Source: Curvularia clavata | Lineage: Eukaryota | Reading direction: 5' to 3' | Length of the DNA stretch: 64,000 bases | Assembly (NCBI GenBank): GCA_023920165.1 | Contig: CP089275.1 | Location: forward strand, 2,542,001-2,606,000 | Part shown: positions 1-46,700 of the stretch, in pieces | How positions within the stretch are numbered: the first letter of the stretch is position 1 | Layout of the letters: the number at the start of each line of letters is the position of its first letter | Made by a program: the position numbers and the translations under genes | The notes under the pieces: model-generated | Told to the model about the DNA's origin: nothing | Database searches by the model: none | Seen by the model: only the letters and a program-made list of their open reading frames with translations

Positions 1-1593
1 ACAGCGTGCGAGAGCCTGGCGGCTAACACCTAATCGCTCTCCTCCTTGACGCTCTTCATGAGCAATCTGCTGATCAGCCTCGCGTTGAGCAAGTAGATCC
101 TCTCCAGCTCCCTTTGTAAGCACTCCTTGCTTCTGTATACGCTTCTTTTTACGCTGTCTACGTTCTGTAGCTGCCTCGTTAGCCTTTTCAAGGCTGGTAA
201 TTCGATCGCGTATTAGCTCAGCTGAAAGCATCATTATCTCTACTCCCTTTTTAAGCTGGCCAATCGCTGCAATAATTGAAGCTGGTGACGAACTTTTATG
301 CTGTCGAACGCGATTACTTATTAGTGTAGATTGAGCTTCAAGCTCGCGTACGTTGCTCGGCGTACAGGCCTGCCAGAGAGCTTCTGCGAGAGCTGGTAGA
401 GCTGGCGTAGTTGGCGTACGTAGCTGTACGTCAAGCTTTGACAGAACAGTGTCTGGCTGGAGAGGAACAAGGCCTGCGCCTTGAAAAGCTGAGCAGATAT
501 TGGCTGACGTGAACGATTGATCAAAGGCTGCCTTGAATGCTGGCAGAAACTCAAGCTTAGTGATATGGTTAATATGGTTGCGTATTAGGCTCTCCACCTC
601 ACGGCTATACGCGCGCTTCAATGGCGAGAAGCAGCCAACGTCAAGAGGCTGGAGCAGGTGAGACGAGTGAGGCGGCATACAGAGCGTGTAGATGTTGTTC
701 TCCTTATAGAGCTCTTGAAACGCAAGAGAGTTATGGCTCTCATGGCCGTTAAGGATAAGTAGACGGCGCGCGCCTACAACGCGAGTCTTTGTATAGGCGT
801 CAAAGTGCTTTAGCCACTCAACTCCTAGCTCGTTGGTCGTCCAGCCATTGTCGCTGACAGCGATCGCCCAGTTGCGTGGGATATCTGCCTCCTCGTACCA
901 GGCAGATAGGTGATACTTGCTAGTAAAGATTAGAAACGGTGGGATAGACTAGCTAGCTGTATTAATTCTAGCGATAAACGTCACCCACTCGCGACCACCT
1001 GGCTGAATGGCCTTTGGCCGGCCTCTTCTCTCTGACGCTGTAATGACAAGCTGAGTAGTAATCTTGCCCATTATAAAGCCAGCTTTGTTAAAGTTGTAGA
1101 CGTCCTCGTCACAGATGCCGTACTTGGCCTTTGTCTGCTCTATAAGCTTAAACCAGCTCTTAATTAAGACTGGATCTTCACATAGAGCTCTCTGTCTATT
1201 GTACGCCCGATTGAAACGTGTCGTAAGATTGTCTGTACGCTTGACAAAGTTGGCTGGCCACTTCTGCCCAACCTGGCCAGCGCTACGCGCAGCTAGTAGC
1301 TTATTAGCCATATCGCGCATAGCAGCGTACGTGGGCGCAAATCCACGTGAATCAAGATTGAGTATGTGGTCAACTATCACCTCCTCTTCTAGCTTAGTTA
1401 GCTTCTTTGAGTTGGGCTGGCAATCGCGTCGGGCAGTTACGCCAGCGCGTCGGCGGCGGATTGTTCGTTCAGACACGCTATAGATAGCAGCAGCACGACG
1501 ATTACTCTGTATTTGATGAGAATTAATAGAAGAAATAGCAAGCTGGATATCTGCTTCATTTGAGGCTAATAGAGTAGCTCTGCGTTGAGCCAT
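1..1593 (-). pseudogene. DDE_1/CENP-B HTH transposase, inactivated
   Basis: HTH N-terminus, then YNF(N)(K)AG, LLIL(N)GHESH and [23 protein letters not shown]->TAG stop at 949-951, with the frame continuing to the window edge. Confidence 0.92.
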
Positions 1594-2170: not shown

Positions 2171-2206
2171 CGCGTCGCGAAACACGCGCGTGAACGTCTG
2201 ACGTCA
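2171..2206. promoter_or_regulatory. Cluster of CGCG (MCB/SCB-like) boxes plus a CRE palindrome
   Basis: CGCGTCGCGAAACACGCGCGTG (2171-2192) and TGACGTCA (2199-2206), about 150 bp upstream of the ORF at 2351. Confidence 0.4.
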
Positions 2207-2350
2207 AGCCCCCGTCGCGCCTCACCCTCACCTTCACCATTCACTCGCGCTGGCGCTGGCGCTCAGCCCGTATCATTCTTTTTCTGGTTACATATCTTCT
2301 CTTCTTCCCTGTCAGCATGAGCTTGTCATCTTGTTCCACCGTTTTCTCCC

Positions 2351-5035
2351 ATGATGCCTTCAAACCCCTTTGAAGCAGCACTTAGCCAACCAGAAAGCGA
2401 CTTGCCACATGCACAGCTCGTTACCCTGCTTTCTGTCGGCGAATTTAGTGATCCTTACCTTCCTACAATCGCAGAGAACTACCTAAGTGCCTTCTGCGAT
2501 CCCAGCAGATCGGAGGTACAACGAAGATGGATTGGCATCACTCTTGCGCGCATGCTGGAGAAGTCCGATCGTGTCGCGCACCTTCTACGACTGTCAGACC
2601 AGTTAAAGAAATTGGGTGTTATTATCGTGAGCCATGAGGAACAAGGAGTGATCAAAACCATCGCCGGCCTCATTATGCGACAAGGATTAGAGCAGGATAT
2701 CGAATACCACAAGTTTTGGCCGACCGAAAAGCTTGCTCATAGCGCGCTCGATTTTCCAAGACGCCCTGATTCGAGATGGATGAGCGATTTTCACACATTC
2801 CTCAATTGTTTTGACGAATCGACCATCAGCAACTTGAGTAATCAGAGTTATATTGGATACATTGCTTCTATGGCTACTTCAGACGGATTCACATGTGGAG
2901 AGCCTGTCAACGACATCTGTGCTGTCATCCTTGAGACTGGAATGCTGGCCATCATCGTCTCTGACATACACCTTGAAAACTGCCATTTCGTGGACATATC
3001 AGTCAGTCATATCATCAGTACACGATCGGAATCATCGAGGCCACACGACGTCCAAACCCGACCGACAGGATGCGAATCATGCAGCGTTATACTGTCACTC
3101 AAATCTATACCCTGGGCTTACTGTCTGAATTCTAGGCAGCGAATCGCGACGGAGATATCACTGTTGTTCAAGCGTTCAAAGGACGCTGTGCAATGGGAGG
3201 ACTACATCAAACGACATCAAAAGGCCCACGAAGCGCATCGCCGCATCTCTGACATCTCCGTCGATACAAACCCTTTGCCATCGTGGCAAGATCGGCAACA
3301 GAAGTCGCCTTGCGGTCGCCCGTCACATTGCTTAGCAGATCAATCAAGTCTCCAAAAACCCTCCAAACTCTGTCACGATTCTTTATCATACGCACGGCCA
3401 CGTCGAACTAGGTCGCATACATCACTACAAGAAGAAAACAAAAGTTTGTCGTCACAGTGCAGACATGTAGAATGCAGCAAGGAAAGACAGACTCACGCTT
3501 CTCGAGCCGCCAAGCAAAACGCCTTGAAAAAGCTAGGTTTGCAGTCTGGTAACGTCGATGGATACGATCAAAAGGAAAGAGGGCAACAACAGACGGACTC
3601 AGACGCGCCCAGTACAGGATCATCATCCAAGGGGAAGGAGGTTACCAAGTCAGGCAATGTGCATATTGGACACACGGTCAAAGATGACGAAGAACATCCT
3701 CCAACTCAGAAAAGGTCAAAGAAACGAGCTAGTACCAAGCGTAAGGCGGGTTTGCAGCTGGCCAAGAACGGGGACCATATGAAGAGGTCGCGGGTACACA
3801 CGGATAGCCATGCAGACTTGACTATCACAGCGAAAATAGAACGAGATCGACCACAAATACCCGCTAAACCATTCTCATCTGCGTTGTTCTCCCGACACTC
3901 ATTGATCGAAGGATTGGAAGGTTCACAGGAGCTAGCTGATTCTGATGCATCATTCAAAAAGCCAACACTGCCTGCACCGAGCGCTCGATATCCGTCAACT
4001 CCAACAAAGCCGAAACAACAAGTCCTAGAGACACAACGAAGACTACAGATCTCGAGAGTTCCAAGGTCTTTCGATGTCGATATTTTCTCCCAGATGCCAT
4101 CATCACCACCGATACCCTATCAACCAAACGAGGGAATGGGTTGGTCACGAGAAACTGCAACTGAGGCAGCAATATTATCAAGCAACAGCAAACCTGTACC
4201 TGCATCGCCAAACGCGGAATCAACAGCAATATCTGGTCACGCAGATAATGATGATGTTGCATTTGAGAAACGAACAGGGGATTCCCAGATTGCGAGAAGC
4301 GATCCTTTCACACGGAGGTCCAAGGGTGGAAAAATTACATCTTTCCTACGTCGTTTGACAGGAGAAGAACCAATAGATGTAGCTTCTAACCTGGGAACCG
4401 ACGATTCGCAAATTGCACTGGCTGGAAATATAGATTCTAGTCCTGCTAGATTGGATGGAGCAGTGATTGAGCCACTTCCACAGCCCAGGTCCGGTCGGAA
4501 GAAGACGAACCACCCTGCTCTAGCTGGCACGCAGGAAATTGACGGGGGTCATGGTGTGGAGAATGGCATTCTGAATGGCGGTATCTGGTATGATGAGCAA
4601 CGCTCTTCAGAATCTGATCTTACGCCGGTTTATTTCAGTTCCTCGCCGCCAAGATTGGGATCGCTCACCAGTCATAGCTCAACTTCTGCTACGCCCTTGC
4701 TTTCTCCTCACTCTGCACTATTTTCATCGGATGTTAACGAAATTTGTCGGGAAACAAGTCCGGAACCTTTCCAGCGCAATTGACACAATCTTTTGGCTCG
4801 CGCATCGAAAGAGGTCGTGCATTGTATTGTTGCTAGCGATTCTGACCCTAGCGATATTGAGAAGTTCATGAAAGATCATAATCTTGTACTGCAGTCGGTG
4901 TTAAGCCGATATAACAATGACTACGAACGCGTGTTTGTAGACATGGAGGCCAAGCGTGAAGCGGTCTGCGAAGAGCTCGATGGCGTCATTGAGCTGAAAG
5001 CTGATGAAGGGAAAAAGGTTGATACTCCCATCTAG
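2351..5035 (+). CDS. Large hypothetical protein, candidate meiotic axis protein (Red1/Rec10/SYCP2-like architecture), interrupted by an in-frame TGA at 4781-4783
   Basis: An 810-aa ORF, with the 4793-5035 ORF in the same frame. Helical N-terminus, beta-rich PH-like segment, long S/P/K/R disordered middle, helical/coiled-coil tail. The gene is well supported; the function is inference. Confidence 0.6.
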
Positions 5036-5500: not shown

Positions 5501-5980
5501 ATGTTGTCAATCACTCCCTCCTATACCCACATTCCCAGCTTCTATCGTATCTTCTTCACCTATCTCGACCCCCTCATCTGCGTCTGGGGTGCATACATGG
5601 ATTTTTTCCTGCCTTCGCTTGTCCTCTCTTCACATATTCCCTCGCCACCTGTCCCAGACCAGGGTCATGCCATGGTTCTAACACAGCGTGGAGGTGGCAT
5701 GCTGAACTTTGGCATTGTATCTGCTGTGCTGCTGCGATATACAGAAGACGTCAACGTGTGGGCAATCGTACAAGTGGCGTGTTTTGTGGTGGACCTGGCC
5801 TATTATTGGAGTGTATGGCGTGTTTTGAACAGCCAGGGTCGCTTGAGTCCTGCGCTATGGCGGGCCGAGGATTGGGGGAGTGTGGGTATTACCGCAGTTG
5901 CGGGGGCAGTTCGGTTGGCGTTCTTGATGGGGGTGGGGTTCAACAGGAGAAGTGTCATCAAGGGTGCGAAGGGGCAGTAA
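5501..5980 (+). CDS. Small multi-pass membrane protein (fungal DUF7704-like), 159 aa
   Basis: ATG at 5501; about 4 hydrophobic helices; YRIFFTYLDP...W.IVQ...VDLAY pattern. Confidence 0.7.
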   Translation: MLSITPSYTHIPSFYRIFFTYLDPLICVWGAYMDFFLPSLVLSSHIPSPPVPDQGHAMVLTQRGGGMLNFGIVSAVLLRYTEDVNVWAIVQVACFVVDLAYYWSVWRVLNSQGRLSPALWRAEDWGSVGITAVAGAVRLAFLMGVGFNRRSVIKGAKGQ

Positions 5981-6179: not shown

Positions 6180-7456
6180 CTACCTCTTAGTAGCACGCTC
6201 TGAGATGTCAACCTGAACATTGGTTACTTTAGTAATGCTCAAGTACTTGGCCTTCATAGCGGGTTCGCAAACCTCGAGCTCCAAGTCCCCACACGTCCCC
6301 TCCACAATATTGCGCTCTGACTCTGAGCAAGAATTGGTGTTGGACTTTTTTCTGCCGTTTTTAGATGTGGTCATTGTTGCGCCGGTCAGTTCTGAGTGGT
6401 GGGTTGCATCGACGGATGGGAGCGAGCGGCGGTTGCTGAACAGACTTGTCCTCCATGAGAAATTTTCCGCAAGAAGGCGGTAGAGAGGGCGCAGCGTGGA
6501 GAGAGAGCCAGCAGTGATAGCAAGACTCATTTCGATCTCTGACCAAATGGCAATGGGGACCGTTGCATATAGAAATTCTGGATCTCGAAAGGTCTCCACA
6601 TACGCTAGGCGAACAATGACTGCTGAGCTTGCACTAACGAGACATCTTAGCAGGCCACCTCGGCAGCAACTAGAAGTAATGGGCGAACTTACATGCACCC
6701 CATGCTGAGGATGGGAACAAGTGCAAACTTTTGATTGCGACTCATGGATAGGCCTCTGACTAGAAAAGCGGGCAGAATAGCGAAAGCGAAATCGGACGCG
6801 GCGAAAATAGCAGACATGACATATGTCAAAGTTATAATGACATCCATGCTGATACATGTTCCTTTGTCGCCGATAGCTCTTGTCCAGAAGAAGTGAACAG
6901 GTCTGCACTGAAACATTGCTAGGAGGCCGTACGCAGCGCCTATAACAACGCTGATCCAAATGGCAAAGTGTGTGATGTATCGGGACCACACCTGTGTGAA
7001 AGGTGTGTAGCGCAGTAGCGAGAGACCTAGGGATACTTTGGCACTTATCATGGTCAGGCAGTACGTCCAGTAACATATCCACCAAAACTGAAGGAGAGCA
7101 AAGGTTAGCATATGCATACTGATCAACATTTGGCTGGACTTTGTTTACCCGTAAGGCCATCATCATGCTATGAGGAGGAATGTCCTTCATGAGTCTTCCA
7201 GTGCCAGTGAGCGCGCCTCCAGTGGCACATATCACATTTACCGTATGTATGACTTGAGCGAAGACCATACACCGGTCATCCCAGCCAAAGGCTTTGACTA
7301 CAAAGGTTCGAACGTAGATCCGTAATACCACAGCTATCCATGATATAGATAGAAAGGCAATCTCAATCTATTCACCCTCGTCAACCCATGTCCAACATTG
7401 ATCATGTCTTACTTTAGTACCCGAATCATCTCCCTGGCGCGATGTCCGATCGCCAT
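6180..7456 (-). CDS. PTH11-like (non-CFEM) rhodopsin-domain integral membrane protein, 4 exons
   Basis: Exon 1 at 7421-7456 (MAIGHRAREMIR), intron 7368-7420. Motifs LRIYVR..GWDD, AKVSLGL, QCRPVHFFW, DFAFAILP, IWSEIEMSLAITAGSLSTLRPL. Confidence 0.88.
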
Positions 7457-32784: not shown

Positions 32785-33795
32785 ATGGCCGCCAGCATGG
32801 CCCACTACCAAGGCCACCACCCCAACACAATCTCCACGGGACGCCCCGAAGCAGTTGCCCAGTATGCGCCGCGCCGACCAGAGCGAAAGTACCGCCTCGA
32901 GGTCGAGCAGCAGCCTATCCGAGCACGCATGTGTGGCTTTGGCGACAAGGACCGCCGTCCCATTACCCCTCCGCCCTGCATCCGCCTCGTCGTGCTCGAC
33001 GACATGGACCGCGAGCTCGACTTCAACGAAATCGACAGCACCTACTTTGTCCTCATGGTCGACCTGTGGAACGAGTCAGGCCAGTCGGCCGTCAACCTCG
33101 TCCGCCACAGCAGTGCCGCCCCCACCGTGTCCATCAGCAGCAGCACCACGACGTCGTATCCTCCACCCCCAGAGCGAAGCCACTACGTCGCCACAACCAT
33201 TCCCGGCTATGACCCGCAAGCCTACCGCCACCAGCAGATGCAACCGCCTCAGGCCATGGCCGCTGCTGGCTACGGCGCGCATGCCCCCGTGCCCGTACCC
33301 CAGTACTATTCCCAACCCCCAACTGCCAGCTACCAGCCGTACCCCGCTGGCCCTTATGGCCAAACACCCACCCAGTCGGCCATGATTCCTGCCACCCCCA
33401 TGAGCTCCAACCACACGCGCAACCTCATTGGCATGAACGCCGTCAACGCCTGCCGCCTCAACGACACAAAGAACAAGCCCGGCCTGTGGTTTGTCCTGCA
33501 GGACCTCAGCGTCCGCACAGAGGGTACATTTCGCCTCAAGCTCTTCCTCTTCGACATTGGCGCCGGCGACGGCACAAACGCGACCGTTTCCAACGAAGGC
33601 CCCACGCGCGGAAAGGGCAAATGCCTCGCCGTCAACTTCTCAGACCCTTTTACTGTTTACTCGGCCAAAAAGTTCCCCGGTGTCATTGAGAGCACCCCGC
33701 TCAGCAAGTGCTTTGCCCAGCAGGGCATCAAGATTCCCATTCGCAAGGATGGACCAAAGTTGCCCAACCAGGCAGAGTACGACGCTGATGATTAG
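32785..33795 (+). CDS. velB: Velvet-domain regulator VelB (split velvet domain), intronless
   Basis: QQPIRARMCGFGDKDRRPITPPPCIRL, VDLW..VNLVRHS, a P/Y/Q-rich insertion, TRNLIG, WFVLQDLSVRTEGTFRLK, VYSAKKFPGVIESTPLSKCFAQQGIKIPIRKD. TATAAAA at 32582. Confidence 0.93.
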   Translation: MAASMAHYQGHHPNTISTGRPEAVAQYAPRRPERKYRLEVEQQPIRARMCGFGDKDRRPITPPPCIRLVVLDDMDRELDFNEIDSTYFVLMVDLWNESGQSAVNLVRHSSAAPTVSISSSTTTSYPPPPERSHYVATTIPGYDPQAYRHQQMQPPQAMAAAGYGAHAPVPVPQYYSQPPTASYQPYPAGPYGQTPTQSAMIPATPMSSNHTRNLIGMNAVNACRLNDTKNKPGLWFVLQDLSVRTEGTFRLKLFLFDIGAGDGTNATVSNEGPTRGKGKCLAVNFSDPFTVYSAKKFPGVIESTPLSKCFAQQGIKIPIRKDGPKLPNQAEYDADD

Positions 33796-40774: not shown

Positions 40775-43700
40775 TTAATAAGGAATACCGTTTGTAATAA
40801 GCTGAAATCGATCATATGTCCCCGTCGAGTAACTCGACCTACTCTTCTCAATCAAGCCGCGCATATACTCGGCCGCCTCACGCTCACTCTTATCCAGCAC
40901 AAAGCGATCCCGAAAGTTACGCATCGACTCTGGCTTGAAGCACGGTAGCCCACTGTCAAGCATGACCTGAACCACGTGGCAAAGGTGCTCGCAATGCTGC
41001 CTGCTGGCGAGGAAGGCCTTGACGGTAAGCTCCTCGAACCAGCGGTACGCCTGTGAATTATACGGGTTTGCCGCGTTCTTGCCAGACATGACAGCAATCA
41101 TTTCGGCCGTGAGCTTAAACGGCGCACGCTCAAACTTGATCCCGCCGGGCGCAATGTCGAAGCAGAAGCCAAAATCGATGTGGATAATGTGGCCCGCGTC
41201 GTCAATCATAATGTTTCCGTTGTGCCGGTCCTTGAACTGGAGCAGGAAGCTGATGACTGAGTAGGCGGCCATGGATTTGACAAAGTTGGACCGCGCTTCC
41301 TGGTACCGGATCGAGTCTTCATTGCCGTACCGCGACACAAAGTAGTCGTCAAGCCGATTGACTGCTTCGCGACCGAGCATGTCGCGCGAGATGGAGTTGG
41401 GCAGCACGTCAATGACACCGCAGCCAGGCGCAGTAGCTGTAACGCGGTAAGGGAATACCCAGACATCTAGACCAACCGTGTTGAAGATGCCTCGGAAGGC
41501 GGCAATCATCTGAAGCGCGAGCACGTCTTGACGGCAATCGTCTCCTACTTTGAAAATGGCAGACAACCATGTCTCATAGCTATTGTCCTTCTTCTGCGAG
41601 ACGCTGCGGTCGTCCTCGTCGACTTCTTCCGACCCTTGATCATCAGGCCTGTTCTTCCTGATGCGGAACGTAGCCATGAACGGTGTCTTTGCATGACTCT
41701 GTAATGGTTTGCCAGACTTGCGGTCGATGCCAATGACTTGGCCGTCAGGGTTGGAAGGGAGATAGACGCCAACCTCCACCTTGATCTTGCGCAGTTCCTC
41801 CTCGATTTTCTGTTTCTTGACCTCTTTAGGCTCGTGCAAAACCGATCGTAAAGTACCCGAGATGCCAGTGACTTCGTTGAAAAACGCAAACTCGCGTTCG
41901 TAAAAGGCATGGTCTTCTGGCGAGAAACTTGATTCCAGGCTGGCCATGACCTTGTCGAGCGTGGGCTTGACGGGATCTGGAATCTCAGCAGCCTCGTCCT
42001 TGTATGCGTTGGCCTTCATGTTCCAGATGATTTGATGAGCAAAAAGCTGTGAGAACTTGGCCGTCTCGATAATGTATCGCTCAACGTAGCCCAAGACGTC
42101 GTATCGAAGCGTTTGCACAATCTGGTAGACGTAGAAGAACATGACATCTACTGAGTGGCTCTCTAGTGCCCTCATTGCGTACTGAATAATGAAGGGGTGG
42201 TTGCCGTAAGCTGGTAAAAAGTATGTAACAGCTGTAATGGGGTTTACTGGTGCCCAGTATAGCATGTACTTGGCAGAGTTAGCAAAAAGAAAAGTCCTAG
42301 AGACGACTTCGTACATACCTTGAGCTGGAAGGAAACATCGCCAGGCAGCGAGTTACCCAAAAGTACCTCTAGCGCATCTGGCTCGTCCAGAACCTTTTGT
42401 GGGAAATTGAGTACCTGCCACCTCACCTCATTGTTGAGACGCTGGGACTGGAAGCGTTTAATGAGATGAATGGCGATTCCAGGATGCTCAGCCCAGGCCG
42501 TCTTCAAATGAGCAGTCACAGCAGCCTGGCGGGGTTAGCGTACATAATTTCTTGAGAGGGAAGACTTACATCAGGGAGTGTATTGCCATGACGCCCAGAG
42601 GTAAAATGGTGCTTTTTGCCATCAAGAGGGAACAGCCACACCGTCAGGCGAGACTGTTCGTTCGAAACGAGCAGAGACAGTAGGTCTTGCTTTGCCTTGA
42701 GCTTTGCACCAATGTCAGAGGCAGTAGTGACCTTCCCAATAGCATCGATTTGCGCCTGAACATCAGCCAGGACATGAGTCTCGGCCTTGATCTGCAGTCT
42801 GTTGCCTCCGAAAGACCATTGAGGAGCCTTGGCAAACCATGCCAGAGCAGCAGTCAACACGCGGTCTGTCAAGCGCCACCTAATCTTGGGCGAAATCGTG
42901 GTACAATAGTGCGTAATACGCAGTCCAAGCAAGATGATATGGAAGTAAGACTCGCGGGCAAGAGGCTGCTCGCATCCCGCGCTCATTGCATCCAGCGTGA
43001 TATGCATCAGCCGAACATAGACGCGCTCGACATCCGACTTGCTCAGTCGCGATGCGTTAAAGTGGCTGGACAAGAATTGCAGCAGGCGGAAATGAGGTGC
43101 AATTAGATTGTACACATGCTGCTGTCGTTTCGACAGCGCCTCTTTGTCCGTAGCAGCAAACTCTTGCTTTCCGTAGAAAGGATCGGCGTGTTTCAATGCA
43201 GGGCTAAAGATACCACGACGCTTGCGCACCGTGTTCTCCCAGTTTTCAGCAATGGCAACTAGGATCCGGGACTCCATGCGAGGATTCTCCTTGGCAACGC
43301 TCGTCCATAGCGAGATACCAAGCTTGATGGACTGCTTCGAGAAGACTGCGAACGGTATGCCGACTAGATGTTGGACGATGGGCGACTGATCCGTCTTCAC
43401 GCGGCACAACAGCGCGGCGGCTTTCCGTAGTATGTCGCGTAGCTCTGCAATGGCGACATGCTTGTGTCCCATGGTGCGGGTTTCCAAATCCACCAAAAGG
43501 CTAGTTGCTTCATGCAGGCTGCGTGACAGATAATTAGACCTAGACTCAGAAGCGGGTGCACCCTTCAGCCATTCTTCCTCCTGATCTGTTACTCCATCTA
43601 GGAACTTGTACTCCTGCCTAGTAGTGTACTGAGTAATAAAGTCTGAAGCGGTGTTGATATTGATACCCTGGCGTTCCACAGCCCCGAGACGCTGGTCAGT

Positions 43701-46700
43701 AGACGGAACGACAGAGCCCATCTCGAGAGCAAAAGACCTTCCCAGAGAAATGTGACCAAATGTCATTTCATCATCAAACTCGGAGAGATATGACTGGAGA
43801 AGTCCTTTGACATCAAGAGGGGCAACATCGAGCGTTCCCTTGACCCAGGCAGTTGCGCGCTTGTGTAGCGCGTCGAGAGTGGCTCGTCGAAAAGCATAGT
43901 CATCCGACAGCTCGACAGCGATATTGGATCGTTTGGAGGTAAAGGTCGACTTCCAAGTGTACTCGTCCGTCTCTCCTTCGAGACAGCTGTACCACATCAT
44001 GGAGAGGAGTTCCAAGAGAGCAAACAGCGCACTCTTTTGGCATAAAGTCGATGGCACTTCACGAATGACAACATCTGCACAGGTAGCAGCCGCTTGCTGA
44101 ACGCGCGCAATGCGGTGACAGCATGCAGCGAACATGGTGGCTAGCTGCTTGGCCAAGTAAGGCGTCGAGAAGGTATGTGATTGACCCGACAATGTCTTTG
44201 TCAGGTACGTTCGAACTGCAGTCGTTGTGATGGCAGACATGCAGTTTCCGACTGCACCTGTTCGTAACTTGGGATCAAGGAAGTAGACGAGTGCCTTGGT
44301 GCAATCGCCTGTACTTGCTCGTAAATCCTCCACTAGGTATGCGGTACTTAGGAAAACAGCTTCCTGGTAGCTGAGCGACTTGGTATCTGCTTCACAAGAA
44401 GGAAGCAGCTTGCCCAGGCGTTTCTTCTGCTCGACAGTATGCTCGGGGGACTTGCCGCGACGCAGCACCGTGTTCAATTCGATGTCACTTTCTGAAAGGA
44501 AGGGGCGCTCTTCGGTAATCAATGGCTTGCTAAACCGCGCAAGCGTACGCAGCTCTTCGCGGTATTGTTTACCCAAGTCGGAGAGCAAGTCAAATCCATG
44601 GACGACAATGTTGAACCAAGCATCGCGCTGAAGACCGATGATGGAATCATCCAGCTCAGCATACTCGGGGCGTTCAGCATTTCTCTCGAGCAGAACCGCA
44701 AGCGGCTTCAGCAGCTGTGCAATTTCCTGTGCCGCAAGTTCCGTGTCGCGAAGATGACGATGGGATGTTTCCTGGGCGTCCCCCTTGCTGACAATGGTGT
44801 CCAGCAAATGCGTGAGGTAGATTTCAAAAGCAGGCTCGCCGACATGGATTTCCTTTGAGAGGTTGAGGCGCGCAGTCATGACCTAGACAAGACATTAGTT
44901 ATGACGAGGTAGCTGTCAAAGGAGGTTACTCACAGCGTCCAACTTCGCCGCATCATCAGATACCAGCGCATCATGCGACAGCTTCGTGTAAAGCTTAAGC
45001 AGGGATTTGAATTCTCCAGGCGGACTGTGTATACCAAGGAATGCTGAATCGGTAATGATTTTGGCATCCACCACCTTGCCCGAACGCCCAACCTTTTGCA
45101 CGAGCATTGACAGAGCAAGCGCAGTAATTTTTGGATCCTTGCAGTTCCTCGCAACTGACACAATAGTCTCAACTACCGTGGTATGCACATGGTGGGGCTC
45201 ATCTACGTCGCTTGGGGCTAGAGAGATTGCACTGCCATGCTGGTGGTTGTATACACCGTCTGTACGCGCGGTCTTACTGGCGGTGCCATTCAATGCGGGA
45301 GAGGCAGAGGCGTTTCGCTCAGAAGCAGGAGCCACACTAATGACGTTTCCAAGGCTATAGAGTGTTGTAATGATGACATCTTGAGGAAGCAGACTGAGAA
45401 CTGAAGCAAGAGATTCTGCTGCCACCGAAGTCGTCCGGTGATCAAAGTTGGCTTGAACAATAACCCGAGGCAGCGAGCGGCCCAAGGTTGATGCGAGTTG
45501 TGGGGAGACTTTGGCCAGAATATCCATGATTCTCAAAACAGTAGAAGCAAGCTCATGGTCCGCACTTTGTGCAGGGTCGTTGAGCACGTTGTCCAGCCAA
45601 GTGGTCAGGACTTCAGCATCAGTGATGTCCGTGTCGTTGTCGTACACAGTACAGCAGAGGTATGTCACGAGCACTTTTGCCTTGACTGAGGATGCCTGCT
45701 GCTGTTGCCAAGCTGATCCCACCCGCTGGAGATATTCGAGATCATTTTCCAGGCGCTCCATTTCCTCCGCGGCAATCTTGGCTAGTCCTTCGGCCAGCGC
45801 ATTTTCGGCTGCCGCTTTGATGTGCGGATGGTCTCTGCTATCTAGCCAACTCTGAAGGTGGCTGAGGACGGAATTCTGTGAAGCAAGATTTCTACTAACT
45901 CCAACAAGCTGGGAAGCCGAGGCAAGCACGAGCTTCAGAAATGAATCATGCAGGACCATGGCTCCAAGAGGCCGCCCAGTCGCAGCATAATGCTTGGTAT
46001 ATCGCTTCCACTCTCGCAGCTCGTGCTGGTGCGAATGCGCATTACGCACAATAGACAGGACAGTTTCAAATGCAATCAGGAACTTCTCCGTCAAGTTTGT
46101 CCGCACATTTTGAACAAGCTGTAGGATATCGTAGGCATTCCAGAAACCAACGTGCTCTGCAGAAGCACTCAGGAAGCCCAGAAGCGACAGACTATGCGTC
46201 ATGACCCGCGCCAGCTCGCCATCAGCGCCGAAGTCGTCTTTTCCATCGTCAATAAACTGCTGTTCTGACAGCTGGACAGCTGCTGTGGCCCATCCCGTAA
46301 GATAACCTTGTAGCGCAACGGCGGCTTGTGTTCGCAGCTCTTCATGCCGAAGGCCCAAGGAGAGAACGGCTGACGTGAGACTGTAGGTAAGGACTTCGTA
46401 AGGAGCGGGTTCGATGGTGCGTAGACTGGGCGACGGCGCAAAGGTCTGAGCGTAGGATGCGGTGAGGTAGGGGGACAGGCGAGCAAGCAGCTTTTCGGCA
46501 ACATCAAACGATGCGATATAGGGCGCGGACTTGCACAGAGCCAGGATGGCCTCGAGTTCTTGCAGCTTCATGGCATTGGATGCGTTTGAGAATCGCTTGA
46601 ACATCCTTGTGTAGTCGGAGCCAGTTGTCTCTGCCGACGACGACTGCGCCGACAGGCGGGCAAGCTTCTCGAGCGCATGGCTGCGAATGGTACGCCTGAT

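What the first reader, a model, noticed from the sequence alone, without database searches (positions are those of the whole stretch)
2351..5035. Orphan gene with the full architecture of a meiotic chromosome-axis protein (Red1/Rec10/SYCP2 family)
Seen: about 155 aa of amphipathic helices, then about 130 aa of beta-strands ending in one helix (..ISLLFKRSKDAVQWEDYIKRH). After that come about 500 aa of disordered S/P/K/R-rich sequence with many SP/TP sites and an about 85-aa helical tail; about 894 codons in total. Established: ARM-like + PH + disordered + C-terminal coiled coil is the shared layout of yeast Red1, S. pombe Rec10 (N-part) and mammalian SYCP2, which diverge too fast for simple BLAST. 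Inference: this is an unannotated axis protein in this lineage; the MCB-like promoter boxes fit.
Basis: partly seen in the sequence, partly recalled or inferred. Interest (0 to 1): 0.75.

Follow-up and report, generated by a model that had tools for sequence, protein, structure and literature searches.

The report
Truncated Red1-like meiotic axis gene
This fungal gene looks like the local version of the Red1/SYCP2 protein that builds the chromosome axis in meiosis, but it is not an orphan, and in this genome a stop codon cuts off its already decaying tail.

Summary
The described layout is real. AlphaFold2 (pLDDT 91.4) gives helices to residue 155, a PH-like beta domain at 167-273 and a closing helix at 276-299. 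After that come about 495 poorly conserved residues and a helical tail. The best PDB fold match of residues 1-300 is the SYCP2 N-terminal domain (5iwz, E 6e-5). The helical half alone matches armadillo repeats, not DH domains.

- The gene is not an orphan. A profile search finds 250 relatives (103 at E<=1e-30) in Dothideomycetes, Lecanoromycetes and one Eurotiomycete, and every one that carries a name is called 'hypothetical'.
- The '894 codons' contain an in-frame TGA at codon 811 (4781-4783), where four homologues have Leu or Val. No intron can remove it.
- SP/TP sites are at chance level, and no conserved motif follows the PH domain.

No sequence method links the family to Red1 or SYCP2 (no Red1 or SYCP2 match in Pfam; no SYCP2 match in the PDB sequence searches). 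A 2026 preprint already describes Pezizomycotina Red1 homologues with this layout.

The tail here and in the nearest relative scores about 55 bits, against 120-155 in other members, so it was decaying before the stop arose.

Verdict: this is probably a Red1-family member, truncated in this genome. It is a new member of a known kind and of moderate interest.

The parts
2171..2249 (+). CGCG-rich promoter cluster (six CGCG cores, one CGCGAAA). An exact TGACGTCA lies inside it at 2199-2206. The cluster sits 105-180 nt upstream of the ATG.
   Evidence: It is the densest CGCG window of the 64 kb, at 6 per 100 bp. It has no exact ACGCGT. Function is inferred only.
2351..4783 (+). Coding frame as written: 810 codons ending in TGA. 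The second ATG at 2354 matches the start of the homologues.
   Evidence: It is colinear with four homologues and needs no intron.
2351..2824 (+). ARM-like helical domain, residues 1-158.
   Evidence: AF2 pLDDT 91.2. Foldseek best matches are designed armadillo repeats and beta-catenin repeats 1-4 (TMq about 0.5, E>=0.05).
2828..3250 (+). PH-like beta domain with closing helix, residues 160-300.
   Evidence: AF2 strands 167-273 and helix 276-299. The whole 1-300 model best matches SYCP2 5iwz.
3251..4720 (+). Poorly conserved, S/P/K/R-rich central region (residues 301-790) that carries short conserved islands.
   Evidence: Composition. Conservation blocks are 0.14-0.36 outside the islands.
3476..3535 (+). 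Conserved island 1, residues 376-395 (SK..LP..S..AAKQ.ALK.L type).
   Evidence: Invariant S376, K377, K388 and Q389 in the 5-sequence alignment. Weak in the 81-sequence alignment.
3890..4015 (+). Conserved island 2, residues 514-555 (SRHSLI.GL ... FKKPTLPA ... PSTPTKP).
   Evidence: Invariant columns R515 to P551.
4166..4369 (+). Conserved island 3, residues 606-673. This is the best-conserved stretch of the whole protein (LSSNSKP.PASP.AESTAISGHAD ... SDPF ... T.F.RRLTG).
   Evidence: Mean column identity is 0.75 (606-634) and 0.70 (663-671) over 81 sequences. It is 91% identical to P0004, against 59-75% for the other regions.
4631..4699 (+). Conserved island 4, residues 761-783 (SSPP....PSSHSSTSA).
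   Evidence: Mean 0.62.
4781..4783 (+). In-frame TGA at codon 811, inside the conserved start of the tail.
   Evidence: It aligns with L, L, L and V in the four homologues. The frame stays open after it.
4721..5035 (+). Family's C-terminal helical tail (residues 791-894 if read through, then TAG). The last 83 codons lie behind the stop.
   Evidence: The domain score is 56.0 bits, against 120.4-155.0 in 18 held-out members.

Best explanation
The locus holds the Pleosporales-type member of a widespread Pezizomycotina family with the Red1/SYCP2 layout. The family is most likely the meiotic chromosome-axis core protein.

Shown: an N-terminal ARM-like plus PH module, a long weakly conserved middle with four short conserved islands, and an amphipathic helical tail.

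Inferred from what is known of Red1:
- The N-terminal module anchors the protein on the axis.
- The islands are docking motifs for partners such as the Hop1 HORMA domain and the Rec8 winged-helix domain.
- The tail joins copies into tetramers and filaments.

In this genome the gene is damaged. A TGA at codon 811 removes the last 83 residues. The tail had already lost constraint in the lineage shared with the nearest relative. As written, the product would keep the N-terminal module and the docking islands but could not self-assemble. That fits a decaying or strain-defective meiotic gene.
For: - Fold: pLDDT 91.4, pTM 0.90. The best of the PDB matches is 5iwz 'Synaptonemal complex protein' (E 6e-5, prob 1.00, 362 columns), and only 2 matches reach E<=0.001. 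The helical half alone matches armadillo repeats.
- Layout: of 162 stored proteins with a match (the window's own entries included), 106 have the N domain, 111 the middle island, 118 the tail, 81 both N domain and tail, and 71 all three.
- An Arachnomyces (Eurotiomycetes) protein of 1536 aa has the N domain (E 3.8e-10) and the tail (E 1.6e-14) about 1000 residues apart. This matches the preprint's description of Pezizomycotina Red1 (median disordered region 1032 aa, four patches, coiled coil).
- Atlas features: a Red1 (PF07964) cluster scores 0.92 with 205 shared features for P0005, and SYCP2 clusters score 0.81-0.87. These are leads only.
- Stop and decay: TGA stands opposite L/L/L/V. Tail score is 56.0 (window) and 54.5 (P0004) against 120.4-155.0 bits in 18 held-out members. 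The tail is the least conserved region between the window and P0004 (59%), but among the most conserved between two intact members (55%, against 25-54% for the regions other than island 3). The window also replaces the tail's invariant Trp and a nearly invariant Leu.
Against: - No sequence-level link to Red1, Rec10 or SYCP2. Pfam gives 0 families for the window at E<=1. None of 34 full-length members hits a Red1 or SYCP2 model at E<=0.01, and none of 16 N-terminal pieces does at E<=10.
- PDB sequence and profile searches do not find SYCP2.
- TM-score to 5iwz is only 0.30/0.26 with rmsd 14.4. DH-PH proteins follow at E 8e-4 to 1e-2.
- 5iwz is not among the listed matches of the helical domain alone, where 0 matches reach E<=0.001.
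- No conserved motif lies where Red1 has its closure motif.
- The tail's periodicity is 3.6, not the 3.5 of a classic heptad.
- Expression, localisation and partners are untested.
- The stop could be a sequence error. I saw only this one assembly.
Confidence: 0.55

Rival explanations
1. The family is an ARM-PH scaffold with a long disordered region and some other nuclear role. Its likeness to Red1/SYCP2 is convergent or too distant to imply axis function.
For: All sequence-level tests against Red1 and SYCP2 failed. Foldseek TM is 0.30, and helical-plus-PH proteins of unrelated function score within about one to two orders of magnitude. ARM and PH are both very common folds.
Against: 5iwz is still the top match of at least 500. 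The C-terminal helical tail completes the criterion of Tromer et al. (ARM-PH plus a C-terminal coiled coil; PMC8131943, passages). Atlas features place Red1 and SYCP2 clusters among the nearest named ones, with 9 of the ten best named hits in one family or clan. The layout matches published Pezizomycotina Red1.
Confidence: 0.2
2. The gene is effectively intact at 894 codons. The TGA is an assembly or base-calling error, or a private mutation of the sequenced isolate.
For: It is a single-base difference from a Leu codon (TTA to TGA). The frame stays open for 83 more codons that still align with homologues. The nearest relative, P0004, reads through.
Against: The protein collection holds an 809-aa protein identical to this ORF that ends at the same stop, on a 5.88-Mb contig. 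The tail shows independent signs of decay that one miscalled base cannot explain: loss of the invariant Trp, Leu to Pro, and a score less than half that of other members.
Confidence: 0.15
3. The stop is bypassed on purpose. Sexual-stage A-to-I editing (UGA to UGG) or read-through of the leaky UGA-C context makes full-length protein only in meiosis, as in the edited 'pseudogenes' of Fusarium graminearum.
For: Restorative editing of premature stops in sexual-stage genes is established in F. graminearum and N. crassa (PMC10776026, passages). The stop is TGA followed by C; that this context is leaky is recalled, not tested. The tail frame is still open.
Against: Fungal editing prefers U at -1 and hairpin loops, and corrects UAG (PMC11156358, abstract start in the listing; PMC10776026). 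Here the A follows G and lies in a stem of a fold no better than shuffles (z -0.44; 63 of 200 shuffles fold as well). 'Dothideomycetes' does not occur in the main text of PMC10776026. The tail is decaying.
Confidence: 0.04

Closest known systems
Pezizomycotina Red1 homologues, represented by Aspergillus fumigatus Red1 (B0XRH4), as described in bioRxiv 10.64898/2026.07.03.736430
   Same: Both have ARM/PH at the N terminus, a much expanded disordered region with several conserved patches, and a C-terminal helical or coiled-coil domain. The family member from Arachnomyces (Eurotiomycetes) has a spacer of about 1000 residues, like their median of 1032.
   Different: The Pleosporales members are shorter (816-1100 aa; the window's middle is about 490 residues). 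I could not compare sequences directly, because B0XRH4 and their Dataset S1 were not available here. The window copy is truncated.
Mouse SYCP2 N-terminal ARM-like plus Spt16M-like (PH) domain, PDB 5iwz
   Same: It is the best structural match of residues 1-300, with both domains aligned in the same order (E 6e-5, prob 1.00).
   Different: Identity is 11% and TM 0.30/0.26, so the relative position of the two domains or many details differ. No sequence or profile match was found. SYCP2's tail pairs with SYCP3, whereas fungal Red1 self-associates (as stated in 10.64898/2026.01.19.700424, section 5).
Saccharomyces cerevisiae Red1 (ARM/PH 1-345, closure motif 346-362, cohesin-interacting motif near 546-569, coiled coil 733-827; 10.64898/2026.01.19.700424, sections 5-6)
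   Same: The order of modules is the same, with short conserved motifs inside a disordered middle.
   Different: There is no Pfam PF07964 match. No conserved motif lies directly after the PH domain. The strongest motif sits about 310 residues after the PH domain, and its partner is unknown.
Premature-stop 'pseudogenes' of Fusarium graminearum restored by sexual-stage A-to-I editing (PMC10776026)
   Same: Both involve a gene expected to act in the sexual phase that carries one in-frame stop in an otherwise open, conserved frame.
   Different: Those stops are UAG with U at -1. This one is UGA with G at -1, with no hairpin and a decaying downstream region.

Membership tests
SYCP2-type axis core proteins (Red1/Rec10/SYCP2/ASY3) | N-terminal ARM-like repeats followed by a PH (Spt16M-like) domain | tested here: met
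   AF2 pLDDT 91.4. The top Foldseek PDB match is SYCP2 5iwz at E 6e-5. The helical half matches armadillo repeats at TMq about 0.5. The TM to 5iwz is low (0.30).
SYCP2-type axis core proteins (Red1/Rec10/SYCP2/ASY3) | Significant sequence-profile similarity to the last ARM repeats plus PH domain of known members (criterion of Tromer et al., PMC8131943) | tested here: not met
   No match to PF07964, PF18581 or PF18584 for the window (E<=1), for 34 full-length members (E<=0.01) or for 16 N-terminal pieces (E<=10). Profiles against PDB sequences do not find SYCP2. Profile-profile search (HHsearch) against those families could not be run here.
SYCP2-type axis core proteins (Red1/Rec10/SYCP2/ASY3) | C-terminal coiled coil that self-assembles (tetramer, filament) | tested here: inconclusive
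   The family tail is amphipathic-helical with period 3.6. Between 0 and 1 of 1000 shuffles reach it in the three spans that cover 880-944. In the window, the tail lies behind the TGA and scores 56 against 120-155 bits. Self-association was not established.
SYCP2-type axis core proteins (Red1/Rec10/SYCP2/ASY3) | Closure motif that binds the meiotic HORMA protein (Hop1) | not testable with these tools
   No Hop1 from this lineage was available. Residues 301-360 directly after the PH domain are among the least conserved stretches (0.20-0.21). Conserved islands lie further downstream.
SYCP2-type axis core proteins (Red1/Rec10/SYCP2/ASY3) | [quoted passage not shown] | not tested
   No Rec8 from this lineage was available. 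The T.F.RRLTG stretch (663-671) is a candidate by inference only.
SYCP2-type axis core proteins (Red1/Rec10/SYCP2/ASY3) | Meiosis-specific expression and axis localisation | not testable with these tools
   No expression data. The promoter CGCG cluster is only suggestive.
Dbl-family RhoGEF (DH-PH) | Dbl-homology helical domain in front of the PH domain | tested here: not met
   DH-PH structures appear at E 8e-4 to 1e-2 for the two-domain model. The helical domain alone matches armadillo repeats, with no DH entry among the listed matches. There is no Pfam RhoGEF match.
Pfam PF25380 PH_25 (fungal PH-like domain) | Score above the curated cut-off of 27 bits | tested here: not met
   One of 16 N-terminal pieces (P0083) scores 17.3 bits, E 0.0048. 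The window scores nothing.

The most novel reading that the evidence does not exclude
The gene is not dying. In this sub-lineage the axis protein works without its self-assembly tail. The ARM-PH module and the docking islands stay under constraint in both the window species and its nearest relative (75%, 71% and 91% identity), while the tail is the fastest-evolving part (59%) and is finally cut off. This would be a natural separation of the scaffold and docking role of a Red1-type protein from filament formation. It is comparable in spirit to seed-plant ASY3 having lost the ARM-PH end.
Probability: 0.1. Interest if true: 0.6.

Novelty: new member of a known kind. Interest (0 to 1): 0.38.

Why it matters
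- Every family member that carries a name (21 of the 30 representatives whose clusters I looked up; 9 have none) is called 'hypothetical protein', and none matches a Red1 or SYCP2 Pfam model. A fold-based assignment would therefore give a name to a gene found in many plant-associated and lichen-forming fungi.
- The family's best-conserved part is a 65-residue island in the disordered middle, not a folded domain. The two 2026 preprints leave open how Pezizomycotina Red1 binds cohesin, and this island is a concrete candidate to test.
- The truncation, with a tail that decayed beforehand, marks this genome as one whose meiotic machinery may be eroding. That bears on whether the fungus is still sexual.

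Tried and rejected
- **Intron across the stop.** Rejected. The four homologues are colinear through the site, and the window keeps similarity on both sides of it.
- **Self-association of the tail.** Four copies of P0005 residues 840-944 were sent to complex prediction. The result was no verdict (score 0.00, own fold uncertain, alignment not used, controls not folded). It counts neither for nor against.
- **The search for homologous proteins.** With alignment A2 and lengths 'longer', it searched only 3417-5000 aa and found nothing. With 'near', it added only two proteins.
- **Sequence and profile searches of the PDB**. The only matches were low-complexity or generic helical hits; SYCP2 was not found.
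- **Pfam at loose thresholds**. No Red1 or SYCP2 match.
- **Helical domain alone against the PDB**. It shows an ARM fold but does not single out SYCP2.
- **Editing hairpin around the TGA**. No structure beyond shuffles.
- **Failed runs.** One alignment of 88 long proteins failed internally and was repeated with 60. Two MAFFT runs timed out and were replaced by a fast mode, so the alignment of the disordered parts is rough.
- **Not checked.** The bioRxiv supplements are closed; Dataset S1 with the 36 Pezizomycotina Red1 accessions could settle membership. The supplements of PMC8131943 are not held. The rest of this genome was not available, so no search for a rival Red1 candidate or for Hop1 and Rec8 was possible.
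Full report
**What is at the coordinates.** The + strand holds one long frame from ATG 2351 (a second ATG at 2354 matches the start of the homologues) to TAG 5033-5035. It is not open throughout. Codon 811 is TGA at 4781-4783, so the ORF as written is 810 codons. The same frame then runs on for 83 more codons.

**The stop is a lesion, not an intron signal.** A word-based search found four relatives besides the window's own 809-aa entry: P0004 (68% identical), Exserohilum turcicum, Stemphylium lycopersici and one JGI protein. All four are colinear with the window through the stop, and they have Leu, Leu, Leu and Val where the window has TGA. The window keeps similarity on both sides of the site. 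Any intron that removed the stop would also delete conserved residues. A single base separates TGA from the Leu codon TTA.

**Not an orphan.**
- A profile of the five sequences, scored against 1.84 billion representative proteins, found 250 proteins at E<=0.001, 156 at E<=1e-10 and 103 at E<=1e-30.
- I looked up the clusters of 30 of the 150 listed representatives. The names place them in Pleosporales (Clathrospora, Phaeosphaeriaceae), Botryosphaeriales (Saccharata, Neofusicoccum, Macrophomina), Patellaria, many Lecanoromycetes, and Arachnomyces of the Eurotiomycetes.
- Every one of them that carries a name (21 of the 30; 9 have none) is called 'hypothetical protein'.
- In a local search of the 165 proteins then stored, 162 matched. 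Of these, 106 had the N domain, 111 the middle island, 118 the tail, 81 both N domain and tail, and 71 all three. These counts include the window's own entries.

**The fold.**
- AlphaFold2 on residues 1-300 with a 69-row alignment gave mean pLDDT 91.4 and pTM 0.90. Helices run from 6 to 155, strands from 167 to 273, and a closing helix from 276 to 299.
- Foldseek against the PDB put 5iwz, 'Synaptonemal complex protein' (the SYCP2 N-terminal domain), first: E 6e-5, probability 1.00, 362 aligned columns, 11% identity. The TM-scores are only 0.30/0.26 and the rmsd is 14.4.
- Only two matches reach E<=0.001. The next group is DH-PH exchange factors at E 8e-4 to 1e-2.
- To separate these, I folded the helical half alone (pLDDT 91.2). 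Its best matches are designed armadillo-repeat proteins and the first four repeats of beta-catenin (TMq about 0.5). None is significant (best E 0.052; 0 matches at E<=0.001). Neither a DH domain nor 5iwz is among the rows listed.
- So the module is ARM-like plus PH, as claimed. The two-domain combination points to SYCP2, and the helical domain alone does not.

**Sequence-level tests all fail.**
- Pfam gives no family for the window at E<=1.
- Pfam gives no Red1 or SYCP2 family for 34 full-length members at E<=0.01. The only row is a sub-threshold STAT coiled-coil match.
- Pfam gives no Red1 or SYCP2 family for 16 N-terminal pieces at E<=10. One piece has a sub-threshold match to PF25380, a fungal PH-like domain.
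- phmmer and two profile searches against PDB sequences do not find SYCP2.
- By the criterion of Tromer et al. [quoted passage not shown] The first half of that criterion is not met with the tools I had. Profile-profile comparison to those families could not be run.

**Softer support.** Language-model features of residues 1-300 list SYCP2_SLD (0.87), a Red1 PF07964 cluster (0.85) and SYCP2 (0.83) among the nearest named clusters. For the intact relative P0005, the Red1 cluster scores 0.92 with 205 shared features, and 9 of the ten best named hits share a family or clan. The tool itself rates such scores as leads.

**Comparison with the literature.**
- bioRxiv 10.64898/2026.07.03.736430 (passages, section 12, the methods passage and the legend of Fig. 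S7 read) reports 36 Pezizomycotina Red1 homologues found by iterative PSI-BLAST. Aspergillus fumigatus B0XRH4 is the example. They have ARM/PH domains, a disordered region of median 1032 aa with four conserved patches, and a C-terminal coiled coil. No recognisable cohesin-interacting motif was found.
- The Arachnomyces member of the present family (1536 aa) has the N domain at 131-319 (E 3.8e-10) and the tail at 1384-1507 (E 1.6e-14), which is the same spacing.
- bioRxiv 10.64898/2026.01.19.700424 (abstract and sections 5-6 read) gives the Red1 map: ARM/PH 1-345, closure motif 346-362, cohesin-interacting helix near 546-569, coiled coil 733-827.
- I could not compare sequences with B0XRH4, and the preprints' supplements are closed.
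- Hop1 exists and acts in meiosis in Sordaria (PMC11244814, abstract start in the listing and one passage), so a Red1-type partner in Pezizomycotina is expected.

**The disordered middle.**
- Over 81 sequences (the window plus 80 members with both ends; fast MAFFT mode, so disordered parts are roughly aligned) the best-conserved stretch of the whole protein is residues 606-634 (mean column identity 0.75).
- Next come 663-671 (0.70), 648-655 (0.62), 761-783 (0.62) and the start of the tail.
- The 60 residues after the PH domain, where Red1 has its closure motif, are among the least conserved (0.20-0.21).
- SP/TP sites are at chance: 9 observed against 8.0 +/- 2.5, with 825 of 2000 shuffles reaching 9. 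SQ/TQ sites are at chance too: 8 against 6.0 +/- 2.1, with 442 of 2000.

**The tail.**
- In the family alignment, the mean hydrophobicity of the last ~100 columns has a period of 3.6-3.7 residues. For 880-944 and 895-940, 0 of 1000 shuffles reach it. For 845-944, 1 of 1000 does. For 845-880, 107 of 1000 do. Pro/Gly-rich columns occur at only three places.
- This confirms amphipathic helices but does not prove a coiled coil.

**Decay of the tail in this lineage.**
- I built domain models from 16 other members. The window's tail (read through) scores 56.0 bits and that of P0004 scores 54.5. Eighteen held-out members score 120.4-155.0.
- The tail-to-N-domain score ratio is 0.17 for the window and P0004, against 0.31-0.63 for the held-out members. 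The N domain and the middle island of the window score within the family range.
- Between the window and P0004, identity is 75% (ARM), 71% (PH), 65% (disordered parts), 91% (island 3) and 59% (tail). Between two intact members, the tail (55%) is among the best-kept parts.
- The window also replaces the tail's invariant Trp and, like P0004, a nearly invariant Leu by Pro.
- Constraint on the tail therefore relaxed before the two species split, and the stop came later.

**Could the stop be bypassed?** Restorative A-to-I editing of premature stops in sexual-stage genes is known in Fusarium and Neurospora. It corrects UAG and prefers U at -1 and hairpin loops (PMC10776026, passages; PMC11156358, abstract start in the listing). 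Here the A of UGA follows G. In the predicted fold it sits in a stem, and that fold is no better than shuffles (z -0.44; 63 of 200). Read-through of UGA-C is possible in principle (recalled). Nothing here supports it.

**Promoter and surroundings.**
- Six CGCG cores lie at 2171-2249. This is the densest such cluster in the window (6 per 100 bp, next best 5). It has CGCGAAA and ACGCG but no exact ACGCGT. 'MCB-like' is a fair description and proves nothing.
- Upstream lies a Tc5/pogo-type transposase fragment. Downstream lie a DUF7704 protein and a weak fungal-rhodopsin-like ORF.
- The rest of the window holds ordinary fungal genes.

**Verdict.** At fold and layout level this is a Red1/SYCP2-type protein, and it very probably belongs to the Pezizomycotina Red1 family already described in a 2026 preprint. 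It is neither an orphan nor intact here. I rate it a new member of a known kind, with interest 0.38. The most useful leads are the strongly conserved island at residues 606-673 as a candidate partner-docking site, and the lineage-specific loss of the tail.

Noticed in passing
window 949-1593 (- strand) and 1501-2000: An ORF of 214 aa carries Tc5 transposase DNA-binding and Psq helix-turn-helix domains (E 1.7e-6 and 0.0029), so it looks like a pogo/Tc5-type transposon remnant just upstream of the gene. The adjoining 500 bases have the lowest GC of the first 9 kb (0.406).
   Followed up: partly
window 2199-2206: An exact palindromic TGACGTCA (CRE/ATF-type site) lies inside the CGCG-rich promoter cluster. 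A CCAAT lies at 2147-2151.
   Followed up: no
window 5501-5980 (+) and 6180-7268 (-): The downstream neighbours are a 159-aa DUF7704 protein (E 1.2e-19) and a 362-aa ORF with a sub-threshold fungal-rhodopsin domain match (23.1 bits, cut-off 27).
   Followed up: partly
window 32785-33795 (+): A velvet-factor gene (PF11754, E 1.4e-88). Velvet factors are regulators of fungal development. There is no evident link to the finding.
   Followed up: no
window 40775-46604 (- strand): Three consecutive ORFs carry PI4-kinase N-terminal, PIK and catalytic domains. They are probably one Stt4-type PI4-kinase gene split by introns.
   Followed up: no
homologues P0132 / P0157 (Gyalolechia fulgens, one 9177-base contig): The family member appears as two neighbouring gene models (1780 aa and 354 aa) that fall in one 90% cluster. 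This is probably a split annotation.
   Followed up: no
homologue P0007, residues 1-81: This JGI protein starts with V and has an 81-residue extension before the conserved Met. It is probably a wrong or partial gene start.
   Followed up: no
family alignment, window residues 606-673 (nt 4166-4369): The best-conserved part of the family lies in the disordered middle rather than in a folded domain, and it is 91% identical between the window and P0004. Its partner is unknown.
   Followed up: partly
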